64,000 bases of DNA from Candidatus Woesearchaeota archaeon (lineage in GTDB: Archaea > Nanobdellota > Nanobdellia > Woesearchaeales > ARS49), in assembly GCA_016203445.1 (NCBI GenBank), contig JACQMS010000011.1, forward strand, positions 2,517 to 66,516, given 5' to 3'. This document shows, piece by piece, positions 32,239 to 38,507 of this stretch. Within the stretch, counting starts at the first letter, position 1. The number at the start of each line of letters is the position of its first letter. The notes beneath the pieces were generated by a model, which had not been told where the DNA came from, searched no databases, and saw nothing but the letters and a program-made list of their open reading frames with translations. Made by a program: the position numbers and the translations under genes.

Positions 32239-32799
32239 ATGAAAAAAGTTATAGAATTTGTTGGAGTGCTGATTCTCATATTTGGAATTATTCTAGTTGC
32301 GGGAATATTCAAAAATTCAAACACCCCCATTACAGATTTTGAAATAAAATATAATGAATGTTTAAACATGCAACGAGCAGAATCTCACGTTGAAGCAATA
32401 CAGAAGAATAATCCAAAATTGTGCGATAATAGTTTTGACCCGGAAATGTGCAAAGCCAAAATTCTTGGAAATTCCAGTTTTTGTGAAGGATACGAAGGAG
32501 TGAAAAAAGATTATTGCAAAGGCACAATAACAGGAAATATAAATTTTTGTGGTACGAGTGGCACTTGTAAAGCGGAAGTTCTAAAAAATCCAGCATTGTG
32601 CTTAAGGAATAAAAGTGTTGAAGATGACTCTTTTAGCGACAGAGATTGTAAAATTCTTGCAGGAGAAAAAAGTGACTCTGAAGAATTCTGTTATGATACG
32701 ACGTGGAGTGACCTGGCATTTATGAAGTATGATTCATCACTATGTTCAAACATTCTGAACGATGATAGCAGAAAAAGTTGTGAAACAAAAGCACAATAA
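32239..32799 (+). CDS. Small N-terminally anchored protein with regularly spaced cysteines (about 10 Cys-containing repeats)
   Basis: MKKVIEFVGVLILIFGIILVAGIF TM helix, then C…C spacing of about 10-14 aa throughout. Divergently transcribed from the giant operon. Confidence 0.5.
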   Translation: MKKVIEFVGVLILIFGIILVAGIFKNSNTPITDFEIKYNECLNMQRAESHVEAIQKNNPKLCDNSFDPEMCKAKILGNSSFCEGYEGVKKDYCKGTITGNINFCGTSGTCKAEVLKNPALCLRNKSVEDDSFSDRDCKILAGEKSDSEEFCYDTTWSDLAFMKYDSSLCSNILNDDSRKSCETKAQ

Positions 32800-32829
32800 C
32801 TACCAATTCCATAATTTTTTAACTTCTAT

Positions 32830-32872
32830 ATCTCTCATTCCTAAAACTTTCAGCAATGCCTCAACATCATGC
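32830..32872. repeat. Direct repeat copy A (43 bp perfect core; similarity extends to about 100 bp with indels)
   Basis: atctctcattcctaaaactttcagcaatgcctcaacatcatgc is identical to 34322..34364. Overlaps the stop of the AAA+ ATPase gene. Confidence 0.75.
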
Positions 32873-34177
32873 CAAAAGCGCGAACAATGCAACAGGAATA
32901 ATTTTCACTTTTCCTTCAAGATTTACATCATTTTTTGATAATATAAATTTTTGTAGAAGATCTATTTTTGGAAAGTCTTTTGTTGAAACGCTTTCCTGCC
33001 ATTTAACTTCTATGCCCACGCCCTCACTAACAAAGTCCAGCTCTTTAGAACTTCTTAAGAATTTAACGCCAAGATTTTTTCTTCTCAAGCATTCTCCAAC
33101 AATACCCTCAACAATCTTAGGAACGTTTTCCTGTTTTTTTTCGGCGAGTCCCAAAGTTTTTAGTGATGCAATATGAAAAATAAATGGGTCTATAAAGTAA
33201 ACTTTTCTTTCTTTTCTAAAAAAAGGGGTTTTATCATACTCCTTCCAATAACTTCTTAAAACGTACAAACTTTCAAGAACTTCCAAATAATCACGAACAG
33301 TTATGTGCGAGGGGATTTCAACTTCTTTGGCAAGAGCACTTAAAGAAAATGATGAAGAGTACATTTTAACAACACCTTTCAGAACCGCACTTAAGGTGCG
33401 CTCACTAAGACCAATGCTTGAAATATCCCCAGCAATCCATTCCCAATATATTTGAAAAGTTTCATCCCGTATTTTTCCTTCTTCAATTAATTCATAAGCT
33501 GCACGCAAAAATCCGCCGCAATGAATGTAAAAATCGAATAGCTTGCTGATTTCTGTAATGTTGGGAAGAAGTTTTGGGGCACTCCTAACCATATTTTTAA
33601 TATTACTATGAAAAGAAATTGTTTTCTTCAAAGAACTGCTTCCGAAAACAACACAAAAATTCTTGAAATCAAGAGGTAAAAACTCTTTTATTTTTATCGG
33701 TCTGCCAGGAAATCTCTCTTTTTGAAGCTCCAAAGTTGTAGAACCAGTAAAATAAAAATTCATTCCTTCATTAAGATATTTAATTTCCAAAATTTGTTTC
33801 ACAGATCTTTCCCAATTATTAACAAAACTTATCTCGTCGAGAAAAATATATTTTCCTCCGGATTTTTTGAACAAAGAAACTATATCAATAATATCCTGAT
33901 AATTCATAACAAGATTACAAACAAAGTATAAACAATGCGTTGCAGGAACTTTTTTATCTAAGAGTTCTTTAATGCAAAGCTTCAAATAAGTGGTTTTTCC
34001 AGTTTGTCTGGGACCAAGAATTAAGTGATTGCCTTCTACAAATTTTGGAATGAATAAATGTTTTTTATTGACAGCATAACTAACTTGAGCATCCTTCTCA
34101 ATTTCAAGGATGTCACTCCACCAGGGGTTTTGGCTAACAACGGAATTCCAATCCATGAATTGATAACGAGATATCAC
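32867..34177 (-). CDS. AAA+ superfamily ATPase (COG1373 / DUF4143-type)
   Basis: Walker A LILGPRQTGKTTYLK, Walker B IFLDEISFV, 436 aa with the C-terminal DUF4143-like region typical of this archaeal family. Confidence 0.8.
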   Translation of the reverse strand: MISRYQFMDWNSVVSQNPWWSDILEIEKDAQVSYAVNKKHLFIPKFVEGNHLILGPRQTGKTTYLKLCIKELLDKKVPATHCLYFVCNLVMNYQDIIDIVSLFKKSGGKYIFLDEISFVNNWERSVKQILEIKYLNEGMNFYFTGSTTLELQKERFPGRPIKIKEFLPLDFKNFCVVFGSSSLKKTISFHSNIKNMVRSAPKLLPNITEISKLFDFYIHCGGFLRAAYELIEEGKIRDETFQIYWEWIAGDISSIGLSERTLSAVLKGVVKMYSSSFSLSALAKEVEIPSHITVRDYLEVLESLYVLRSYWKEYDKTPFFRKERKVYFIDPFIFHIASLKTLGLAEKKQENVPKIVEGIVGECLRRKNLGVKFLRSSKELDFVSEGVGIEVKWQESVSTKDFPKIDLLQKFILSKNDVNLEGKVKIIPVALFALLA

Positions 34178-34291
34178 AACTATATAAATGTTTCGATATC
34201 ACAATATCAAAACTTGAGTAAGTTATGATATTTTGATGTCAAAACGCTTTTGACATTTTTAACACTGAATTACACAAGACAAGCACGGCAC

Positions 34292-34774
34292 TCACCACTT
34301 CCACAAATTCTTGACTTCAACATCTCTCATTCCTAAAACTTTCAGCAATGCCTCAACATCATGCAAAGAGCGCAAATGCTCTGAAGATTCAGCAAAACTA
34401 CCTGCACGCATTTGAACTTTGTATTTTCTACACAAAGAGATATTCTGTCTGACACGACCAATAAGCACGGCCCTCTGCCTGCCAGAAGTTTCTATAATGG
34501 CCCTAATGTTAATAACCCAAAAAATATTTTTTTTGCTCATAATAACACAAATAACATGATTAAGACCAGACCTTCTATAATGCAAAGAGTCACGAGGCTC
34601 GATGTATTCAAAATCGTAAATGCCTTTAACGCCCCTCCTCTCCACGAGCGCGCGAACATCCTCACCAGCTTGAAAAACGCCCATTTTTGAAGACTCCTCA
34701 ACAAGAAAGCCAAGTCTTTCAGCCATCGAAACAATAACAGAATTTTTCTTCAAAATAATATCTTTATGAGTCAT
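34292..34774 (-). CDS. Hypothetical protein (160 aa). Its C-terminal ~25 codons lie inside the direct repeat.
   Basis: ORF with ordinary composition. A near-copy of its C-terminus (HDVEALLKVLGMRDIEVKKLWNW*) is readable out of frame just downstream of the ATPase gene. Confidence 0.45.
   Translation of the reverse strand: MTHKDIILKKNSVIVSMAERLGFLVEESSKMGVFQAGEDVRALVERRGVKGIYDFEYIEPRDSLHYRRSGLNHVICVIMSKKNIFWVINIRAIIETSGRQRAVLIGRVRQNISLCRKYKVQMRAGSFAESSEHLRSLHDVEALLKVLGMRDVEVKNLWKW
34322..34364. repeat. Direct repeat copy B (43 bp perfect core)
   Basis: Identical to 32830..32872. Encodes …HDVEALLKVLGMRD… near the C-terminus of ORF 34292..34774. Confidence 0.75.
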
Positions 34775-34789
34775 AGATTCATCACCGAT

Positions 34790-35317
34790 TCATTTATGAA
34801 CTATTTCTTTAGTAATATCGATAATATTTTTGCACAGGTTTTTCAATCTATTCATTTTTGGCCCATCTTTCAAAGAGGTTTGTGTGCCGTAAGTATATTC
34901 TTCTCTGAGGGTTATAACATGAAGCGTTTCGTCTTCAACATCAGAATATTCTAACAATTCTATAAATTTTTCATCAATATCAATTTTATTTTGCTCCTTA
35001 AGAAATCTTATTAAAGAAATTGTGCACGTCTGATTAGAAGATTCATAACCAAACTTTGCGGCGATGGCTAAGAAACAATGATAAACACAATAAAATCCTG
35101 CGGACGCAGACCAGTCAGAAAAACCTATTTCACTAAACTTATCAATACCTTCAAGATTGTGCTCTGCTTTGACTAAATGTTTTTTTGCATCAACAATTCT
35201 TAATCCCACCTTCAAAAGCCCCCTATGTTTCAGTCTCTTGTCCAGATTTTTACAGTCTTCAATTTCTTTCTGCGCTTTATTTAAGCACCATTCAACATGT
35301 TCAGAAGCTTGCGACAT
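34790..35317 (-). CDS. HEPN-domain protein (putative toxin of a HEPN–MNT pair)
   Basis: RIVDAKKH fits the Rx4-6H HEPN motif. Lies immediately downstream of, and overlaps by 17 nt, a nucleotidyltransferase gene (the canonical mntA–hepT order). Confidence 0.5.
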   Translation of the reverse strand: MSQASEHVEWCLNKAQKEIEDCKNLDKRLKHRGLLKVGLRIVDAKKHLVKAEHNLEGIDKFSEIGFSDWSASAGFYCVYHCFLAIAAKFGYESSNQTCTISLIRFLKEQNKIDIDEKFIELLEYSDVEDETLHVITLREEYTYGTQTSLKDGPKMNRLKNLCKNIIDITKEIVHK

Positions 35318-35891
35318 TTTTTAAAACCTCAACGTATTTGTTCTGCCCGCATAAAACAACTGCATTTTTTATAATATTAATAATTGCCTCATTCTTATTT
35401 TTTACATTTTCCAACAAATCTTTACAGGTCAATTTAATAACGTGAATTTTTTTGGGAAGAATATGCCCTTTCTTTTCTATTATGCTGTTTACTTCTTTGA
35501 TGTTTTTATTGTCCATTACAATAAGCACATCAATATCACGAGCACTAGAATAATCTTTAACCGCAGAGCCAAACAATGCCACAATGCGATTGCCCACAAA
35601 AAGTTCTTTAAACTCTTCTTTCCAACGCTTGAAATTATTCGCTTCATCTGCAAGGAGAAAAATTAAAAGTTGAATTGTGTACGTGTCATCAAAGTTTATT
35701 TTATAGATTATTGATTTTCCAATAGTCCTTTTTATAACTATGTTTGATTCGAAAAGCCTTTTGAGTAATTTTTGTGCTCCTACATGACTAATTTTAAGAA
35801 TTTTGCTTATAGAATTTGCATTATAAAATGCAGAATAATCTTTGAACAAAATAAGCAACGCTTCTCGTTCTTTGGAAGTCAGGTTTATCAT
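35301..35891 (-). CDS. Minimal nucleotidyltransferase (MNT) fused to an N-terminal winged-helix domain (putative antitoxin)
   Basis: ALFGSAVKDYSSARDIDVLIVMD (GS…D.D polymerase-beta NTase motif). N-terminal wHTH-like ~70 aa. Confidence 0.75.
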   Translation of the reverse strand: MINLTSKEREALLILFKDYSAFYNANSISKILKISHVGAQKLLKRLFESNIVIKRTIGKSIIYKINFDDTYTIQLLIFLLADEANNFKRWKEEFKELFVGNRIVALFGSAVKDYSSARDIDVLIVMDNKNIKEVNSIIEKKGHILPKKIHVIKLTCKDLLENVKNKNEAIINIIKNAVVLCGQNKYVEVLKNVASF

Positions 35892-35998
35892 AGTACTCTC
35901 CAGTTATCATATAATAACTGGAAGTTACTATTTAAACATTTCTATTATTAGAAATACAAGAAGAAAGATTATTATAGTTCCATAAACACAAAAAATTC

Positions 35999-36670: not shown

Positions 36671-37386
36671 GAAAGCCTCAAAAAGAAATATGGAAAACTC
36701 TCAACGACGTGTTCGACATTTTCACAGAAAGAACAATACACTCGCTAATAACTAAAGGTGTTATAGACGGTTTAGAAAGCCCGTTAAGTATAGGAAAAGA
36801 ATCTAACGTTTTCACAGCAAAAAAGGGCAACGAGAAAGTTGCAGTAAAAATATACAGGTTACAAACAGCAGACTTCAACAAAATGTATTCATACATAAAA
36901 TCAGACCCGAGATTTTTAGAATTAAGACACCAAAGAAGAAAAATAATATTTGAGTGGTGCAAAAGAGAATACAAAAATTTGTTGATAGCAATAAGAGGAG
37001 AAGTAAGAGTACCACACCCCAAAGCGTTCGCAAACAACACTCTAGCAATGTCACTAATAGGAGGAGAAGCTCCAGCACCAAAATTAAGCGTTCAAAAACC
37101 GAAAAATCCTGAAGAATTCTACAAAAAAGTTTTAAGAGAAATGAAAAAATTATACGACGCAGGGCTTGTTCACGCAGACCTATCACAATTCAACATACTA
37201 AACTATGACGAGAATCCGGTGCTAATAGATTTATCACACGCCACAACGTTCAAAGACCCAAATGCTGAAGAATGGCTGAGAAGAGACTGCAAAAATGTTG
37301 CGAACTATTTCAAAAAAATAGGATTGAACATAACAGAAGAAGAAGTGCACAAAGAAATAGTTGGAAATTCCAAAAAAAATGATTAA
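36667..37386 (+). CDS. RIO-type atypical Ser/Thr kinase (Rio1-like)
   Basis: ESNVFTAKKG…VAVKIYR, LVHADLSQFNIL, and 239-aa length. 4-nt overlap with the upstream gene. Confidence 0.8.
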   Translation: MRKPQKEIWKTLNDVFDIFTERTIHSLITKGVIDGLESPLSIGKESNVFTAKKGNEKVAVKIYRLQTADFNKMYSYIKSDPRFLELRHQRRKIIFEWCKREYKNLLIAIRGEVRVPHPKAFANNTLAMSLIGGEAPAPKLSVQKPKNPEEFYKKVLREMKKLYDAGLVHADLSQFNILNYDENPVLIDLSHATTFKDPNAEEWLRRDCKNVANYFKKIGLNITEEEVHKEIVGNSKKND

Positions 37387-38507
37387 GGCAACCAGCTCTT
37401 AGGATTCTCCAATTTCTGAGGCAGATAATCACTCATAACATAATTCAAACCATGAGCCGCCAAAGCCTGCTGTTCCGCCCTCTTCTTCAATTTAATAATG
37501 TCGTGAAGCGCTTGCTGCCACTCCTTGTAATGTTTTACAAAAGGATCATTCTTTAACCCATCTTCAACCCTTTTTATATCTATATCTTTTAGTGGGTGTG
37601 TTGGTAGTTTGTATTCAGTGATATCTTTTGCGGTGATTCCTATAAAGTGTGCTTGTGGAACGCAAAAATATTTGTTCAAATGTGCAGCATTGCCCGATCC
37701 AACTTTTAGAGTTCTATAAATGTTTAGCCAACCATAAGGATCTCCATCATCAAAAACTAGCACTGGAATTTTTTTATCATCAGCAAGCCGTCTAATAAAA
37801 CGTCTTGTTGCTCTCGTAGGAACTCCTCCCATGCTTACAAGAATACAATTCTTCTTCTTCCAATAAGCGTGCTTTACAAGCCTAGAATACATACCCTGAG
37901 TTTCAATAGCCAAAATAAATTCCGCCCTGGTTTCAAACTTCAACTGCTCAACACTCGAAGGAACGCTATAAGAACCGCTACCAAACTTGGTACAATCAAT
38001 CTTAATCTCCTTACCAGTCTCAATATCTTCATCAATAACAGTTAATGCTCCAGCAACATCACCACCACGCTCATCAGGATAAAAACCCAACTGCTCCCTA
38101 TTAAAACCAAACAACGCCTCAATATCATCCATAACAGCATCACTCTCGGGCTGTTCAGAAAACCTGGCCTCCCCCCAATTTTTACTCTGATAATAAGCAT
38201 CCCTCTTAGTAGCCATATCATCAGTCTCAACAAGCAATTTTGAAAGCTCCATCATCCTCAAAGTTTGAGCAAAAGTTTTTATCGTATTAGCAGTCAAAGT
38301 CCTAGACTTTTTACCGCCAGCAAGCTCGAAATAACCATGCTTCTCGTCATAAGTAACATTAGACAAAGAACGCAAAGGAGTAGTAAGAGTTGGAAGCCTG
38401 CCACTCTTAACTGACTTGTATATATTCTCGGCCTCGTCACGAATCTTCTTAATAACCAAAGAACCATTATCAGTCTTCATTACCTTCACCATCCGCGCCA
38501 ATTTCAT
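37383..38507 (-). CDS. top6A: DNA topoisomerase VI subunit A (Spo11-like)
   Basis: CAP/winged-helix plus Toprim architecture and length. Overlaps top6B. Confidence 0.85.

What the first reader, a model, noticed from the sequence alone, without database searches (positions are those of the whole stretch)
32830..34364. AAA+ (DUF4143-type) ATPase gene bracketed by a 43-bp perfect direct repeat, with a disrupted remnant of the neighbouring gene's C-terminus
atctctcattcctaaaactttcagcaatgcctcaacatcatgc occurs identically at 32830..32872 and 34322..34364, and similarity continues for about 30 nt on each side with indels. Copy B encodes the in-frame C-terminus (…HDVEALLKVLGMRDVEVKNLWKW*) of the 160-aa ORF 34292..34774. 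Copy A, just past the ATPase stop, encodes HDVEALLKVLGMRDIEVKKLWNW* in a frame with no upstream ORF. The upstream similarity runs into the last codons of the ATPase gene. A ~1.49-kb segment carrying the ATPase therefore sits between two copies of what looks like one gene's 3' end. This is the footprint expected from an insertion into, or a duplication or gene conversion at, the end of the 160-aa gene. COG1373/DUF4143 ATPases are frequently mobile or defence-island associated in archaea.
Basis: seen in the sequence. Interest (0 to 1): 0.6.

Follow-up and report, generated by a model that had tools for sequence, protein, structure and literature searches.

The report
Defence-type ATPase gene inserted into Rpp30's end
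A single candidate anti-virus gene with its own promoter was spliced into the last ~27 codons of an essential RNase P subunit gene in a Woesearchaeote, leaving the old gene end behind as a duplicate; the same footprint recurs around related genes in other archaea, with no integrase found.

Summary
A 43-nt perfect direct repeat (32830-32872 / 34322-34364) lies inside an ~85-nt duplication and brackets a 1,492-bp segment. That segment holds one gene, an AAA_14+DUF4143 ATPase of the PDC-S01 candidate-defence family, and its promoter.

The 160-aa neighbour is RNase P subunit Rpp30. Six contigs from related Woesearchaeota carry an empty site: Rpp30 directly followed by the convergent gene. So the segment is an insertion.

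- Copy B completes Rpp30; copy A is the displaced old end, still abutting the native downstream gene.
- The copies are a mosaic: a perfect core plus a tail whose differences are mostly third-codon-position changes. One tail was probably imported.
- The joint at the ATPase 3' end lies in 6-11 nt of microhomology.

Related ATPase genes (65-80% identical) occupy eight unrelated contexts. Four more loci show the same bracketing by a neighbouring gene's 3' end, and three hold multi-cassette arrays.

I found no integrase, inverted ends or attC-like hairpins. Best reading: homology-anchored recombination with displacement of the gene's 3' end, as described for bacterial Rhs/T6SS loci. The enzyme is unproven. 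A conserved 16-bp palindromic operator travels with the gene. Interest is moderate.

The parts
34292..34774 (-). Rpp30 (RNase P protein subunit p30/Rnp3), 160 aa, intact. Its last ~27 codons are repeat copy B.
   Evidence: Pfam RNase_P_p30 E 2.9e-9. NCBIfam RNase P component 3 models, below their cut-offs. Homologues of 158-160 aa in other Woesearchaeota.
34292..34376 (-). Repeat copy B. Head 34365-34376, perfect core 34322-34364, tail 34292-34321 (DVEVKNLWKW, stop TGA). It is continuous with the Rpp30 body.
   Evidence: Tail GC3 is 0.60 against 0.26-0.37 for host genes, a weak hint that this tail is the imported one.
34157..34291 (-). 5' non-coding part of the cassette. Three 16-bp palindromic operators at 34161-34176, 34194-34209 and 34226-34241 (spacing 33 and 32). 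TATA box TTTATATA at 34182-34189. A 21-nt palindrome at 34236-34256. About 35 nt of unique sequence follow the Rpp30 stop.
   Evidence: (D6). The operator is enriched about 170-fold upstream of homologous ATPase genes in 64 loci.
32867..34156 (-). AAA_14 + DUF4143 ATPase (429 aa), PDC-S01 type. Architecture: AAA+ core, helical lid, winged helix, C-terminal PD-(D/E)XK nuclease-like domain. Its last sense codon and its stop codon are supplied by Rpp30-derived sequence.
   Evidence: Pfam. PADLOC PDC-S01 E 1.4e-30. AF2 model pLDDT 92.4. Foldseek matches to Orc1/Cdc6, RuvB, ORC and STAND ATPases. Invariant GPRQxGKTT, DE, E350, D374 and E383-x-K385. Junction detail.
32800..32884 (-). Repeat copy A, the displaced, non-coding remnant of the Rpp30 3' end. 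Microhomology joint about 32873-32890, perfect core 32830-32872, tail 32800-32829 (DIEVKKLWNW, stop TAG). Its stop codon abuts the stop codon of the native convergent gene.
32830..34321 (-). The inserted segment, counted with one repeat copy: 1,492 bp. It is absent from the syntenic locus of relatives.
   Evidence: Empty sites in L001-L007. Spacing 1492.
32239..32799 (+). Native convergent Cys-rich 186-aa gene, marking the original downstream border. Convergent genes of 178-224 aa occupy the same position, directly after Rpp30, in relatives; the DNA at its 3' end aligns with L001.
   Evidence: No Pfam or NCBIfam hit.

Best explanation
A compact accessory cassette was acquired horizontally and recombined into the last ~27 codons of the housekeeping gene Rpp30. 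The cassette is about 135 nt of promoter with three palindromic operators, plus one gene for an AAA+/winged-helix/PD-(D/E)XK ATPase of the PDC-S01 candidate-defence family.

Shown:
- The segment is an insertion, because relatives carry an empty site.
- Copy B keeps Rpp30 intact.
- Copy A is the displaced end and still sits next to the native downstream gene.
- The two copies are a mosaic of a perfect core and a coding-style diverged tail.
- The joint at the ATPase 3' end lies in a 6-11-nt microhomology.

Inferred: the incoming DNA carried an Rpp30 3' end from another Woesearchaeote, where the cassette already sat downstream of Rpp30. That homologous stretch anchored recombination by host machinery. 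The route was either a Campbell-type single crossover of a circularised fragment, or homology-facilitated illegitimate recombination with the second joint at the microhomology. Either route leaves a chimeric intact gene and an orphaned old 3' end, that is, C-terminal displacement.

The ATPase is cargo, not the recombinase. It most likely acts as a DNA-sensing ATPase-nuclease, and it probably represses its own promoter through its winged helix binding the palindromes (inference). Repeating such events at one site would give the cassette arrays seen in L020 and L016.
For: Repeat real and non-random. Empty site in six contigs from three related lineages. Mosaic: P about 0.001 for the 43-nt perfect run. 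Six of the seven coding differences in the tail are at third codon positions, and the stop codon changed TGA to TAG yet remains a stop. Joint: the ATPase consensus 3' end GCAnTnTTTGCG meets Rpp30 GCATTTGCG, and the ATPase stop now comes from Rpp30-derived sequence. Cassette relatives of 65-80% identity occupy eight unrelated contexts and share only the operator/promoter and the ORF. The same bracketing by a neighbouring gene's 3' end occurs in L010 (57-nt perfect core, P<2e-5, ATPase in the opposite orientation), L062 (185 nt), L041 (Zn-ADH; the remnant is an in-frame diverged homologue with a 2-codon indel) and L031. Multi-cassette arrays bounded by repeats occur in L020, L016 and L061; in L020 the repeat is demonstrably the 3' end of a small gene. 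Control: 0 of 88 pseudo-genes in the window are bracketed. No integrase or transposase among 20 window ORFs of 250-450 aa. No inverted ends. No attC-like folding. Repeat length (55-185 nt), sequence and cassette orientation differ between cases, so there is no fixed att site. A mechanistic precedent exists in Vibrio T6SS, Rhs and CDI loci (PMC5361080).
Against: No donor genome with the cassette next to an Rpp30 ending DVEVKNLWKW was found. Which tail is foreign is not settled: GC3 rests on only 10 codons, and L001 is about equally distant from both tails. A 43-nt perfect core between sequences that otherwise differ by about 30% needs an extra assumption, either heteroduplex repair or later gene conversion; a site-specific crossover would also produce an identical core. 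A duplication rather than a deletion at the illegitimate joint is the less usual outcome of homology-facilitated illegitimate recombination. Most ATPase loci (about 90%) show no bracketing repeat. In L062 and L031 the divergence is spread evenly, so those cases do not by themselves show import. An integrase elsewhere in the genome cannot be excluded from a 64-kb window. Six of the 20 scanned ORFs had no Pfam hit.
Confidence: 0.6

Rival explanations
1. Site-specific integration by an integrase acting in trans, or one since lost. In this reading the 43-nt core is an att core, the cassette (or a larger element later reduced to it) carried an attP that mimics the Rpp30 3' end, and a tyrosine recombinase encoded elsewhere did the crossover.
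For: Flanking direct repeats overlap and restore a gene's 3' end. A perfect core next to a synonymously diverged replacement end is the classic footprint of integrative elements such as e14 and phage 21 in icd (my knowledge, not tested here). An empty site exists. Tandem arrays at one site occur.
Against: There is no integrase in the 1.49-kb insert, in 20 window ORFs of suitable size, or in the held parts of the other loci. Related cassettes carry no Rpp30-like att sequence. Repeat sequence, length (55-185 nt) and cassette orientation all differ between cases. One joint coincides with the ATPase's own coding end in a microhomology patch.
Confidence: 0.17
2. Self-mobilising single-gene element. 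The AAA+/winged-helix/PD-(D/E)XK protein recognises the palindromes at its own 5' end and itself cuts and joins DNA at the 3' ends of host genes, producing long duplications.
For: The protein combines an ATPase, a DNA-binding fold and an invariant nuclease motif. A specific palindrome travels with the gene across phyla. Cassettes are single-gene units found in many contexts, and bracketing recurs specifically around them, including a second paralogue in L020.
Against: The palindromes flank the TATA box only on the 5' side, which is operator-like, and there is none at the 3' end. The arrays in L020 bracket toxin-antitoxin cassettes that have no ATPase in the same way. About 90% of family members have no repeats. 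The imported, coding-style tail is explained by homology rather than by cutting. PD-(D/E)XK ATPases of this kind are otherwise read as defence effectors (PMC12988326).
Confidence: 0.08
3. In-situ tandem duplication or gene conversion of resident DNA, with no foreign DNA involved.
For: Direct repeats can arise by local duplication, and the perfect core could be kept identical by gene conversion.
Against: The ATPase segment is absent from the syntenic site in all six related contigs. The tail differences are of the coding, third-position type, with the stop codon preserved, which is not pseudogene decay. Close ATPase relatives lie in unrelated loci of other genomes.
Confidence: 0.03
4. Assembly artefact: a chimeric join of two strains or loci through the shared 43-mer.
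For: The contig is a metagenome assembly, and I could not inspect reads.
Against: The copies have different tails, and each joins sensibly to its neighbours: the Rpp30 body on one side and the native convergent gene on the other. The same architecture appears in independent assemblies from other studies (L010, L031, L041, L062). The ATPase reading frame is completed across the junction.
Confidence: 0.03

Closest known systems
C-terminal displacement arrays in Rhs, CDI and Vibrio T6SS effector-immunity loci, attributed to homology-facilitated illegitimate recombination (PMC5361080 and the references it cites)
   Same: Incoming DNA is anchored by homology to the 3' part of a resident gene. The old 3' end is pushed downstream and kept as an orphan. 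Repeated events build arrays of orphaned 3' ends separating accessory genes. No dedicated recombinase is involved.
   Different: In those systems the displaced part is a variable toxin domain with its immunity gene, in bacteria. Here the duplicated end is a functionally equivalent C-terminus of a housekeeping gene (Rpp30), or of a Zn-ADH or a surface protein in other loci. The cargo is an unrelated, self-promoted defence-type gene, and the hosts are DPANN and other archaea.
Integrative elements that insert into the 3' end of a gene and carry a replacement end (tRNA-targeting elements; e14 and phage 21 in icd; recalled from general knowledge)
   Same: Direct repeats flank the insert. The target gene is kept intact by an element-borne substitute end. 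An identical core sits next to diverged replacement sequence. An empty site exists in relatives.
   Different: No integrase was found. The insert is a single 1.3-kb gene. There is no conserved att sequence among related cassettes. One joint lies in microhomology with the cargo gene's own end.
PDC-S01 (PADLOC candidate defence; AAA_14 + DUF4143/PD-(D/E)XK; COG1373)
   Same: Domain architecture, HMM match and conserved catalytic residues. The family is abundant and enriched in Archaea (PMC12988326).
   Different: Nothing differs at the protein level. The conserved operator and the insertion footprint are, as far as my searches show, not described for the family.
Integron gene cassettes and CALINs, including archaeal integrons (PMC9668308)
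   Same: Small, mostly single-gene cassettes, often defence or toxin-antitoxin genes, stacked in arrays separated by repeats (L020, L016, L061).
   Different: The repeats here are coding 3' ends of a host gene with no attC-like hairpin. The cassettes carry their own promoter. No IntI was found. The window holds a single cassette.

Membership tests
PDC-S01 / AAA_14-DUF4143 ATPase (COG1373) | N-terminal AAA_14 P-loop domain with Walker A and Walker B motifs | tested here: met
   Pfam PF13173 E 4.3e-21. GPRQxGKTT and DE are invariant in 96 homologues.
PDC-S01 / AAA_14-DUF4143 ATPase (COG1373) | C-terminal DUF4143 domain of the PD-(D/E)XK superfamily | tested here: met
   Pfam PF13635 E 2.3e-10. 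Listed as a PD-(D/E)XK family in PMC3424549. D374 and E383-x-K385 are conserved.
PDC-S01 / AAA_14-DUF4143 ATPase (COG1373) | Match to the PADLOC PDC-S01 models | tested here: met
   PDLC04787 E 1.4e-30, with four further PDC-S01 models also matched.
PDC-S01 / AAA_14-DUF4143 ATPase (COG1373) | Protection against viruses | not testable with these tools
RNase P protein subunit p30 (Rpp30/Rnp3) | Match to the p30 family profile | tested here: met
   Pfam PF01876: 37.1 bits against a cut-off of 35, but only over profile positions 122-209. The NCBIfam equivalog models match below their cut-offs. The protein is short (160 aa), as are all its Woesearchaeal homologues.
Integrase-mediated integrative element | Direct repeats (attL/attR) flanking the insert and overlapping the target gene's 3' end | tested here: met
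Integrase-mediated integrative element | Element-encoded (or nearby) tyrosine or serine recombinase | tested here: not met
   The insert holds only the ATPase. None was found among 20 window ORFs of 250-450 aa.
Integrase-mediated integrative element | The same att core in related elements | tested here: not met
   Related cassettes have no Rpp30-like flank. The repeats differ in sequence, length and orientation.
Transposon / insertion sequence | Terminal inverted repeats, a short target duplication of fixed length, and a transposase | tested here: not met
   The palindromes occur only at the 5' end. The duplications are 55-185 nt and variable. No transposase domain was found.
Integron cassette | An attC site that folds into an imperfect hairpin, and an IntI integrase | tested here: not met
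   Repeat units fold no better than shuffles: z between -1.2 and +0.7 for the window, L010 and L020. No IntI-like hit.
C-terminal displacement by homology-anchored recombination | A chimeric resident gene, with the old 3' end kept downstream as an orphan | tested here: met
   Mosaic repeat. The remnant abuts the native downstream gene.
C-terminal displacement by homology-anchored recombination | Microhomology at the non-homologous joint | tested here: met
   6-11 nt in the window, and a possible 7 nt (TTTGGAG) in L041. Not clear in L062.
C-terminal displacement by homology-anchored recombination | Dependence on the host's homologous recombination and independence from a site-specific recombinase | not testable with these tools
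   This needs genetics or a reconstituted reaction.

The most novel reading that the evidence does not exclude
PDC-S01-type ATPase cassettes may be autonomous single-gene mobile elements of archaea. In this reading the AAA+/winged-helix/PD-(D/E)XK protein binds the conserved palindromes at its own 5' end and itself catalyses excision and insertion at the 3' ends of host genes, creating long gene-end duplications and cassette arrays. That would be a mobile-element class with neither integrase nor transposase. A milder version holds that DPANN archaea build integron-like arrays of defence cassettes at gene 3' ends using host recombination only.
Probability: 0.08. Interest if true: 0.8.

Novelty: new variant of a known kind. 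Interest (0 to 1): 0.45.

Why it matters
PDC-S01 is reported as the fourth most common defence candidate in prokaryotes, yet neither its function nor its way of spreading is known. This locus gives a clean before-and-after picture of how such a gene enters a streamlined DPANN genome. It enters at the 3' end of an essential gene, without disrupting that gene and without any visible recombinase. The recurrence at other genes, and the multi-cassette arrays, suggest a general route by which small archaeal genomes accrete and swap defence and toxin-antitoxin genes. The conserved 16-bp operator gives a concrete handle for testing the family's DNA binding and regulation. The orphaned gene ends could also serve as a bioinformatic marker for recent gene acquisitions in metagenome-assembled genomes.

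Tried and rejected
- Exact-protein look-ups of the two window proteins found nothing. Homology search then identified the source as a Ca. Woesearchaeota MAG.
- ARAGORN missed the intron-containing tRNA next to the L008 cassette; Rfam found it. There is no tRNA or other Rfam family in or next to the window insert.
- The apparent bracketing repeats in L035 and L101 are A-rich low-complexity sequence and were discarded. Those in L092, L094 and L038 are weak and are not counted.
- The control 'hits' in other loci turned out to be further cassettes or arrays, not background.
- The viral-contig scan found no relatives. Plasmid and phage collections hold only relatives of 22-32% identity. No transfer vehicle was identified.
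- Base composition does not mark the insert as foreign: ATPase GC3 is 0.265, against 0.26-0.37 for host genes.
- Comparison with L001 could not decide which tail is native.
- attC-like folding, terminal inverted repeats and integrase or transposase domains were all negative.
- My impression that the L108 downstream gene is Bro-N-like was not confirmed by Pfam and is dropped.
- The sharp cassette edges seen in alignments may only reflect loss of detectable similarity in unconstrained DNA at this divergence, so I do not use them to define the mobile unit. The 1,492-bp size rests on the empty-site comparison.
- There is no sequence hit to solved structures, PHROGs or NCBIfam for the ATPase.
Full report
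**1. Observation**

The 43-mer ATCTCTCATTCCTAAAACTTTCAGCAATGCCTCAACATCATGC occurs exactly twice in the 64-kb window, at 32830-32872 and 34322-34364. No match is expected by chance, even with three mismatches allowed. Ungapped similarity is 82% over 101 nt, with a spacing of 1492 (alignment). All the genes concerned are on the minus strand. Copy B is the in-frame 3' end of the 160-aa ORF 34292-34774. Copy A reads HDVEALLKVLGMRDIEVKKLWNW* in a frame closed by a stop codon 11 codons upstream.

I make three refinements:
- The duplication is about 79-85 nt, has no indels and ends at the two stop codons.
- The ATPase stop codon lies inside the perfect core.
- The ATPase starts at the ATG at 34156 (429 aa), as in all its homologues.

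**2. What the genes are**

The 160-aa protein is RNase P subunit p30 (Pfam PF01876; NCBIfam RNase P component 3 models below their cut-offs). The bracketed gene is an AAA_14 + DUF4143 ATPase. DUF4143/COG1373 is catalogued as a PD-(D/E)XK nuclease-fold family of unknown function (PMC3424549).

The protein matches PADLOC's PDC-S01 at E 1.4e-30. PDC-S01 is a single-gene candidate defence system described as an ATPase fused to a PD-(D/E)XK domain. It is reported as the fourth most common defence candidate in prokaryotes, is enriched in Archaea, and has not been validated (PMC12988326).

An AlphaFold model built on 96 homologues is confident (pLDDT 92.4, pTM 0.91). Its best structural matches are Orc1/Cdc6, RuvB, ORC, clamp-loader and STAND ATPases. 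That fits a AAA+ core, a lid and a winged helix, followed by an alpha/beta C-terminal domain. Walker A, Walker B, E350, D374 and E383-x-K385 are invariant or nearly so.

The surroundings are housekeeping genes of a Ca. Woesearchaeota MAG: pseudouridine synthase, RIO kinase, topoisomerase VI A and B, FEN1, PCNA, RNase J and tRNase Z.

**3. It is an insertion**

The closest Rpp30 relative (79% identical) is on L001. There the gene is followed after 12 nt by the stop codon of a convergent 185-aa gene and then by the giant surface protein gene. The same holds for L002-L005 (56% identical) and L006-L007 (53% identical).

At nucleotide level, copy B is continuous with the Rpp30 body that aligns to L001. 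Copy A abuts the native convergent gene. Everything between the copies has no counterpart in L001. The insert, counted with one repeat copy, is 1,492 bp. It consists of about 135 nt of upstream region plus the ATPase ORF.

**4. Fine structure of the repeat**

The mismatches are not evenly spread. A 43-nt perfect run among 11-12 mismatches has P of about 0.001. In the 30-nt tail, six of the seven coding differences are at third codon positions. The stop codon differs at two bases (TGA against TAG) yet is a stop in both copies. So both tails look like genuine Rpp30 ends that diverged under coding constraint in different lineages. This is not a decaying copy made in place.

The core encodes the most conserved part of Rpp30 (HDVEALLKVLGMRD). 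Even so, L001 differs from the window at about 10 of those 42 positions, so protein conservation alone does not explain the identity.

At the other end, the 12-nt 'head' similarity is mostly the ATPase's own conserved 3' end (consensus GCAnTnTTTGCG TTA TTA AGT TAG) meeting the Rpp30 sequence GCATTTGCGCTCTTTGCATGA. The joint lies in 6-11 nt of microhomology. The ATPase's last sense codon and its stop codon are now Rpp30-derived (FALLA* in place of FALLS*).

Tail A fits host third-position composition better than tail B (GC3 0.30 against 0.60; host genes 0.26-0.37). With only ten codons this is a weak hint that tail B came in with the insert.

**5. The cassette elsewhere**

ATPases 65-80% identical to the window's lie in eight unrelated neighbourhoods:
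- the window (Rpp30);
- L008, between a 137-aa HIT-like gene and a tRNA;
- L009, after a 197-aa phosphatase-like gene;
- L010, between a surface protein gene and a helicase gene;
- L011;
- L026, which is the same locus as L107;
- L027;
- L106.

L011 comes from the same assembly as L003, which holds an empty Rpp30 site.

Between loci, detectable homology covers only about 100 nt upstream of the ATG and the ORF. The upstream part contains three 16-bp palindromes (TGATATC-NN-GATATCA) spaced 32-33 nt apart around a TTTATATA box. In the window they lie at 34161-34176, 34194-34209 and 34226-34241.

Across 64 loci this palindrome occurs on average 1.42 times in the 180 nt upstream of the ATPase start, against 0.008 per 180 nt elsewhere. 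It persists down to about 35% protein identity. A cis element that travels with a single gene across phyla is most simply the binding site of that gene's own winged helix, which would mean autoregulation. This is inference.

**6. The footprint recurs**

I ran a flank-against-flank local alignment test on 17 loci from species-representative genomes and 80 from metagenomes. It finds strong bracketing repeats in several:
- **L010.** 78 nt with a 57-nt perfect core (P<2e-5). The target is the last ~26 codons of a 1301-aa surface protein. The core begins at that gene's stop codon. Here the ATPase is antisense to the target.
- **L062.** 185 nt ending at the stop codon of a 253-aa gene. The remnant keeps the reading frame and again carries a different stop codon.
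- **L041.** The target is a Zn-dependent alcohol dehydrogenase. The remnant is an in-frame, diverged homologue of its C-terminus with a two-codon indel, which suggests import.
- **L031.** 55 nt, cut short by the contig end.

In the window itself, 0 of 88 control segments are bracketed. The control hits in other loci proved to be more of the same phenomenon:
- **L020** is an array. The 3' end of a small zinc-ribbon gene (...LKKKIENVEVAKEK*) plus its T-rich tail occurs five times. The copies separate cassettes that carry HEPN/MNT, VapBC-like genes and two different AAA_14-DUF4143 ATPases.
- **L016** has a comparable five- to six-copy array.
- **L061**, with L059 and L066, has five copies of a 63-290-nt unit with no reading frame, which I could not explain.

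About 90% of family members show no repeat.

**7. Mechanism**

I found no features of a dedicated mobile element:
- no integrase or transposase in the insert, in 20 window ORFs of 250-450 aa, or in the held parts of the other loci;
- no inverted ends;
- no attC-like folding;
- no shared att sequence, since repeat length, sequence and cassette orientation differ from case to case.

The data fit integration anchored by homology in the 3' end of a host gene. This could be a Campbell-type single crossover of a circularised fragment, or homology-facilitated illegitimate recombination with the second joint at microhomology. Either yields a chimeric intact gene plus an orphaned old end.

This is the logic proposed for C-terminal displacement and orphan arrays in Rhs, CDI and Vibrio T6SS loci (PMC5361080). 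Selection explains why 3' ends are seen: only fragments that reach the stop codon leave the target gene intact.

What remains inferred:
- the donor, which was not found;
- which tail is foreign;
- why the core is perfectly identical (heteroduplex repair, gene conversion or a site-specific crossover);
- the enzymes involved.

I put about 0.6 on host-recombination-type integration, about 0.17 on an unseen integrase, about 0.08 on self-mobilisation by the ATPase-nuclease, and a few per cent each on in-situ duplication and on an assembly artefact. That the segment is an insertion with displacement of the Rpp30 end I hold at more than 0.9.

**8. Known or new**

The gene is an ordinary member of a very large known family. 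The footprint belongs to a known kind: an insertion that preserves a target gene by supplying a substitute 3' end, or C-terminal displacement. The variant features are:
- the single, self-promoted defence-type gene with no recombinase;
- an essential RNase P subunit as the target;
- recurrence across archaeal lineages, including multi-cassette arrays;
- a conserved operator that moves with the gene.

My literature searches for DUF4143, COG1373, PDC-S01 and AAA_14 found no description of these features. The searchable library is incomplete, however.

**9. Verdict**

This is a real, well-supported insertion. Interest is moderate (0.45). The event itself is ordinary genome dynamics, but the recurrent integrase-less cassette footprint and the conserved operator are worth a systematic follow-up.

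Noticed in passing
window 34790-35891 (minus); L001 232-822; L006 1804-3051: An MNT-HEPN pair lies between the pseudouridine synthase gene and Rpp30 (the MNT hits PADLOC PDC-M05A). The pair is absent in L006 and L007, where the synthase gene sits 54 nt from Rpp30. In L001 the MNT gene has the opposite orientation. This is a second variable cassette, on the 5' side of the same housekeeping gene. In the window the HEPN stop is only 15 nt from the Rpp30 start, so Rpp30 may now be co-transcribed with it.
   Followed up: partly
window 35890-35931: A 42-nt near-perfect palindrome (two abutting 21-nt arms, 81% complementary) lies at the start of the MNT gene. It may be an operator for the MNT's N-terminal winged helix.
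   Followed up: no
window 34161-34241; upstream regions of L008-L106: A 16-bp palindrome, TGAYATY-NN-RATRTCA, occurs 1-4 times in the 180 nt upstream of AAA_14-DUF4143 ATPase genes in about 50 of 64 loci from several archaeal phyla. That is roughly 170 times denser than elsewhere in those loci. In the close clade, three copies spaced 32-33 nt apart flank a TTTATATA box.
   Followed up: yes
L020 3230-11119: An array of four cassettes (HEPN/MNT plus PIN/AbrB plus wHTH; ATPase plus MNT-like plus HEPN; a second ATPase; VapBC-like). The cassettes are separated by five copies of the last ~15 codons and T-rich tail of a small zinc-ribbon gene. The complete small gene is present at both ends of the array (90% identical over 223 nt).
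   Followed up: partly
L016 3511-11662: Five to six copies of a 60-66-nt repeat, spaced 0.8-3 kb apart, divide the locus into cassettes, one of which holds the ATPase. In addition, L016 1-300 is 100% identical to 1519-1818.
   Followed up: no
L061 2799-7946; L059 46-1886; L066 1400-3207: In GC-rich contigs, an identical ATPase (38-39% identical to the window's) is bracketed by a 63-290-nt unit. L061 holds five copies of it. The unit has no continuous reading frame on either strand, and its nature is unexplained.
   Followed up: partly
L008 7301-7398: An intron-containing tRNA gene (Rfam 51 bits; missed by ARAGORN) starts 10 nt after the ATPase stop codon in the 79%-identical relative.
   Followed up: partly
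L108 616-917: In another Woesearchaeote (Rpp30 58% identical; same sample as L106), Rpp30 is followed 98 nt later by a co-directional gene of unknown family rather than by the convergent gene. The Rpp30 3' flank may therefore be a recurrent variable spot. The contig ends before any remnant could be seen.
   Followed up: partly
L007 1354-3945 versus window 37383-38507: Topoisomerase VI subunit A in a related contig is 863 aa and carries an intein (Intein_splicing and a faint LAGLIDADG hit). The window's copy is 374 aa and has none.
   Followed up: no
window 34292-34774 and P0002-P0006: Woesearchaeal Rpp30 proteins are only 158-160 aa. They match the Pfam p30 profile over its C-terminal ~90 positions only, so the N-terminal half is divergent or reduced.
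   Followed up: no
L018 4376-4454 and 5926-6004: A 79-nt repeat (95% identical) comprises the promoter region and first seven codons of the ATPase. It is duplicated 1,550 nt upstream, in front of a segment that is not an ATPase homologue.
   Followed up: no
L062 1727-3010: A second AAA_14-DUF4143 gene of a different subfamily (C-terminus ...IPLWKWLLN, like the second ATPase in L020) lies directly upstream of the 253-aa target gene. That target gene is therefore flanked by ATPase cassettes on both sides.
   Followed up: partly
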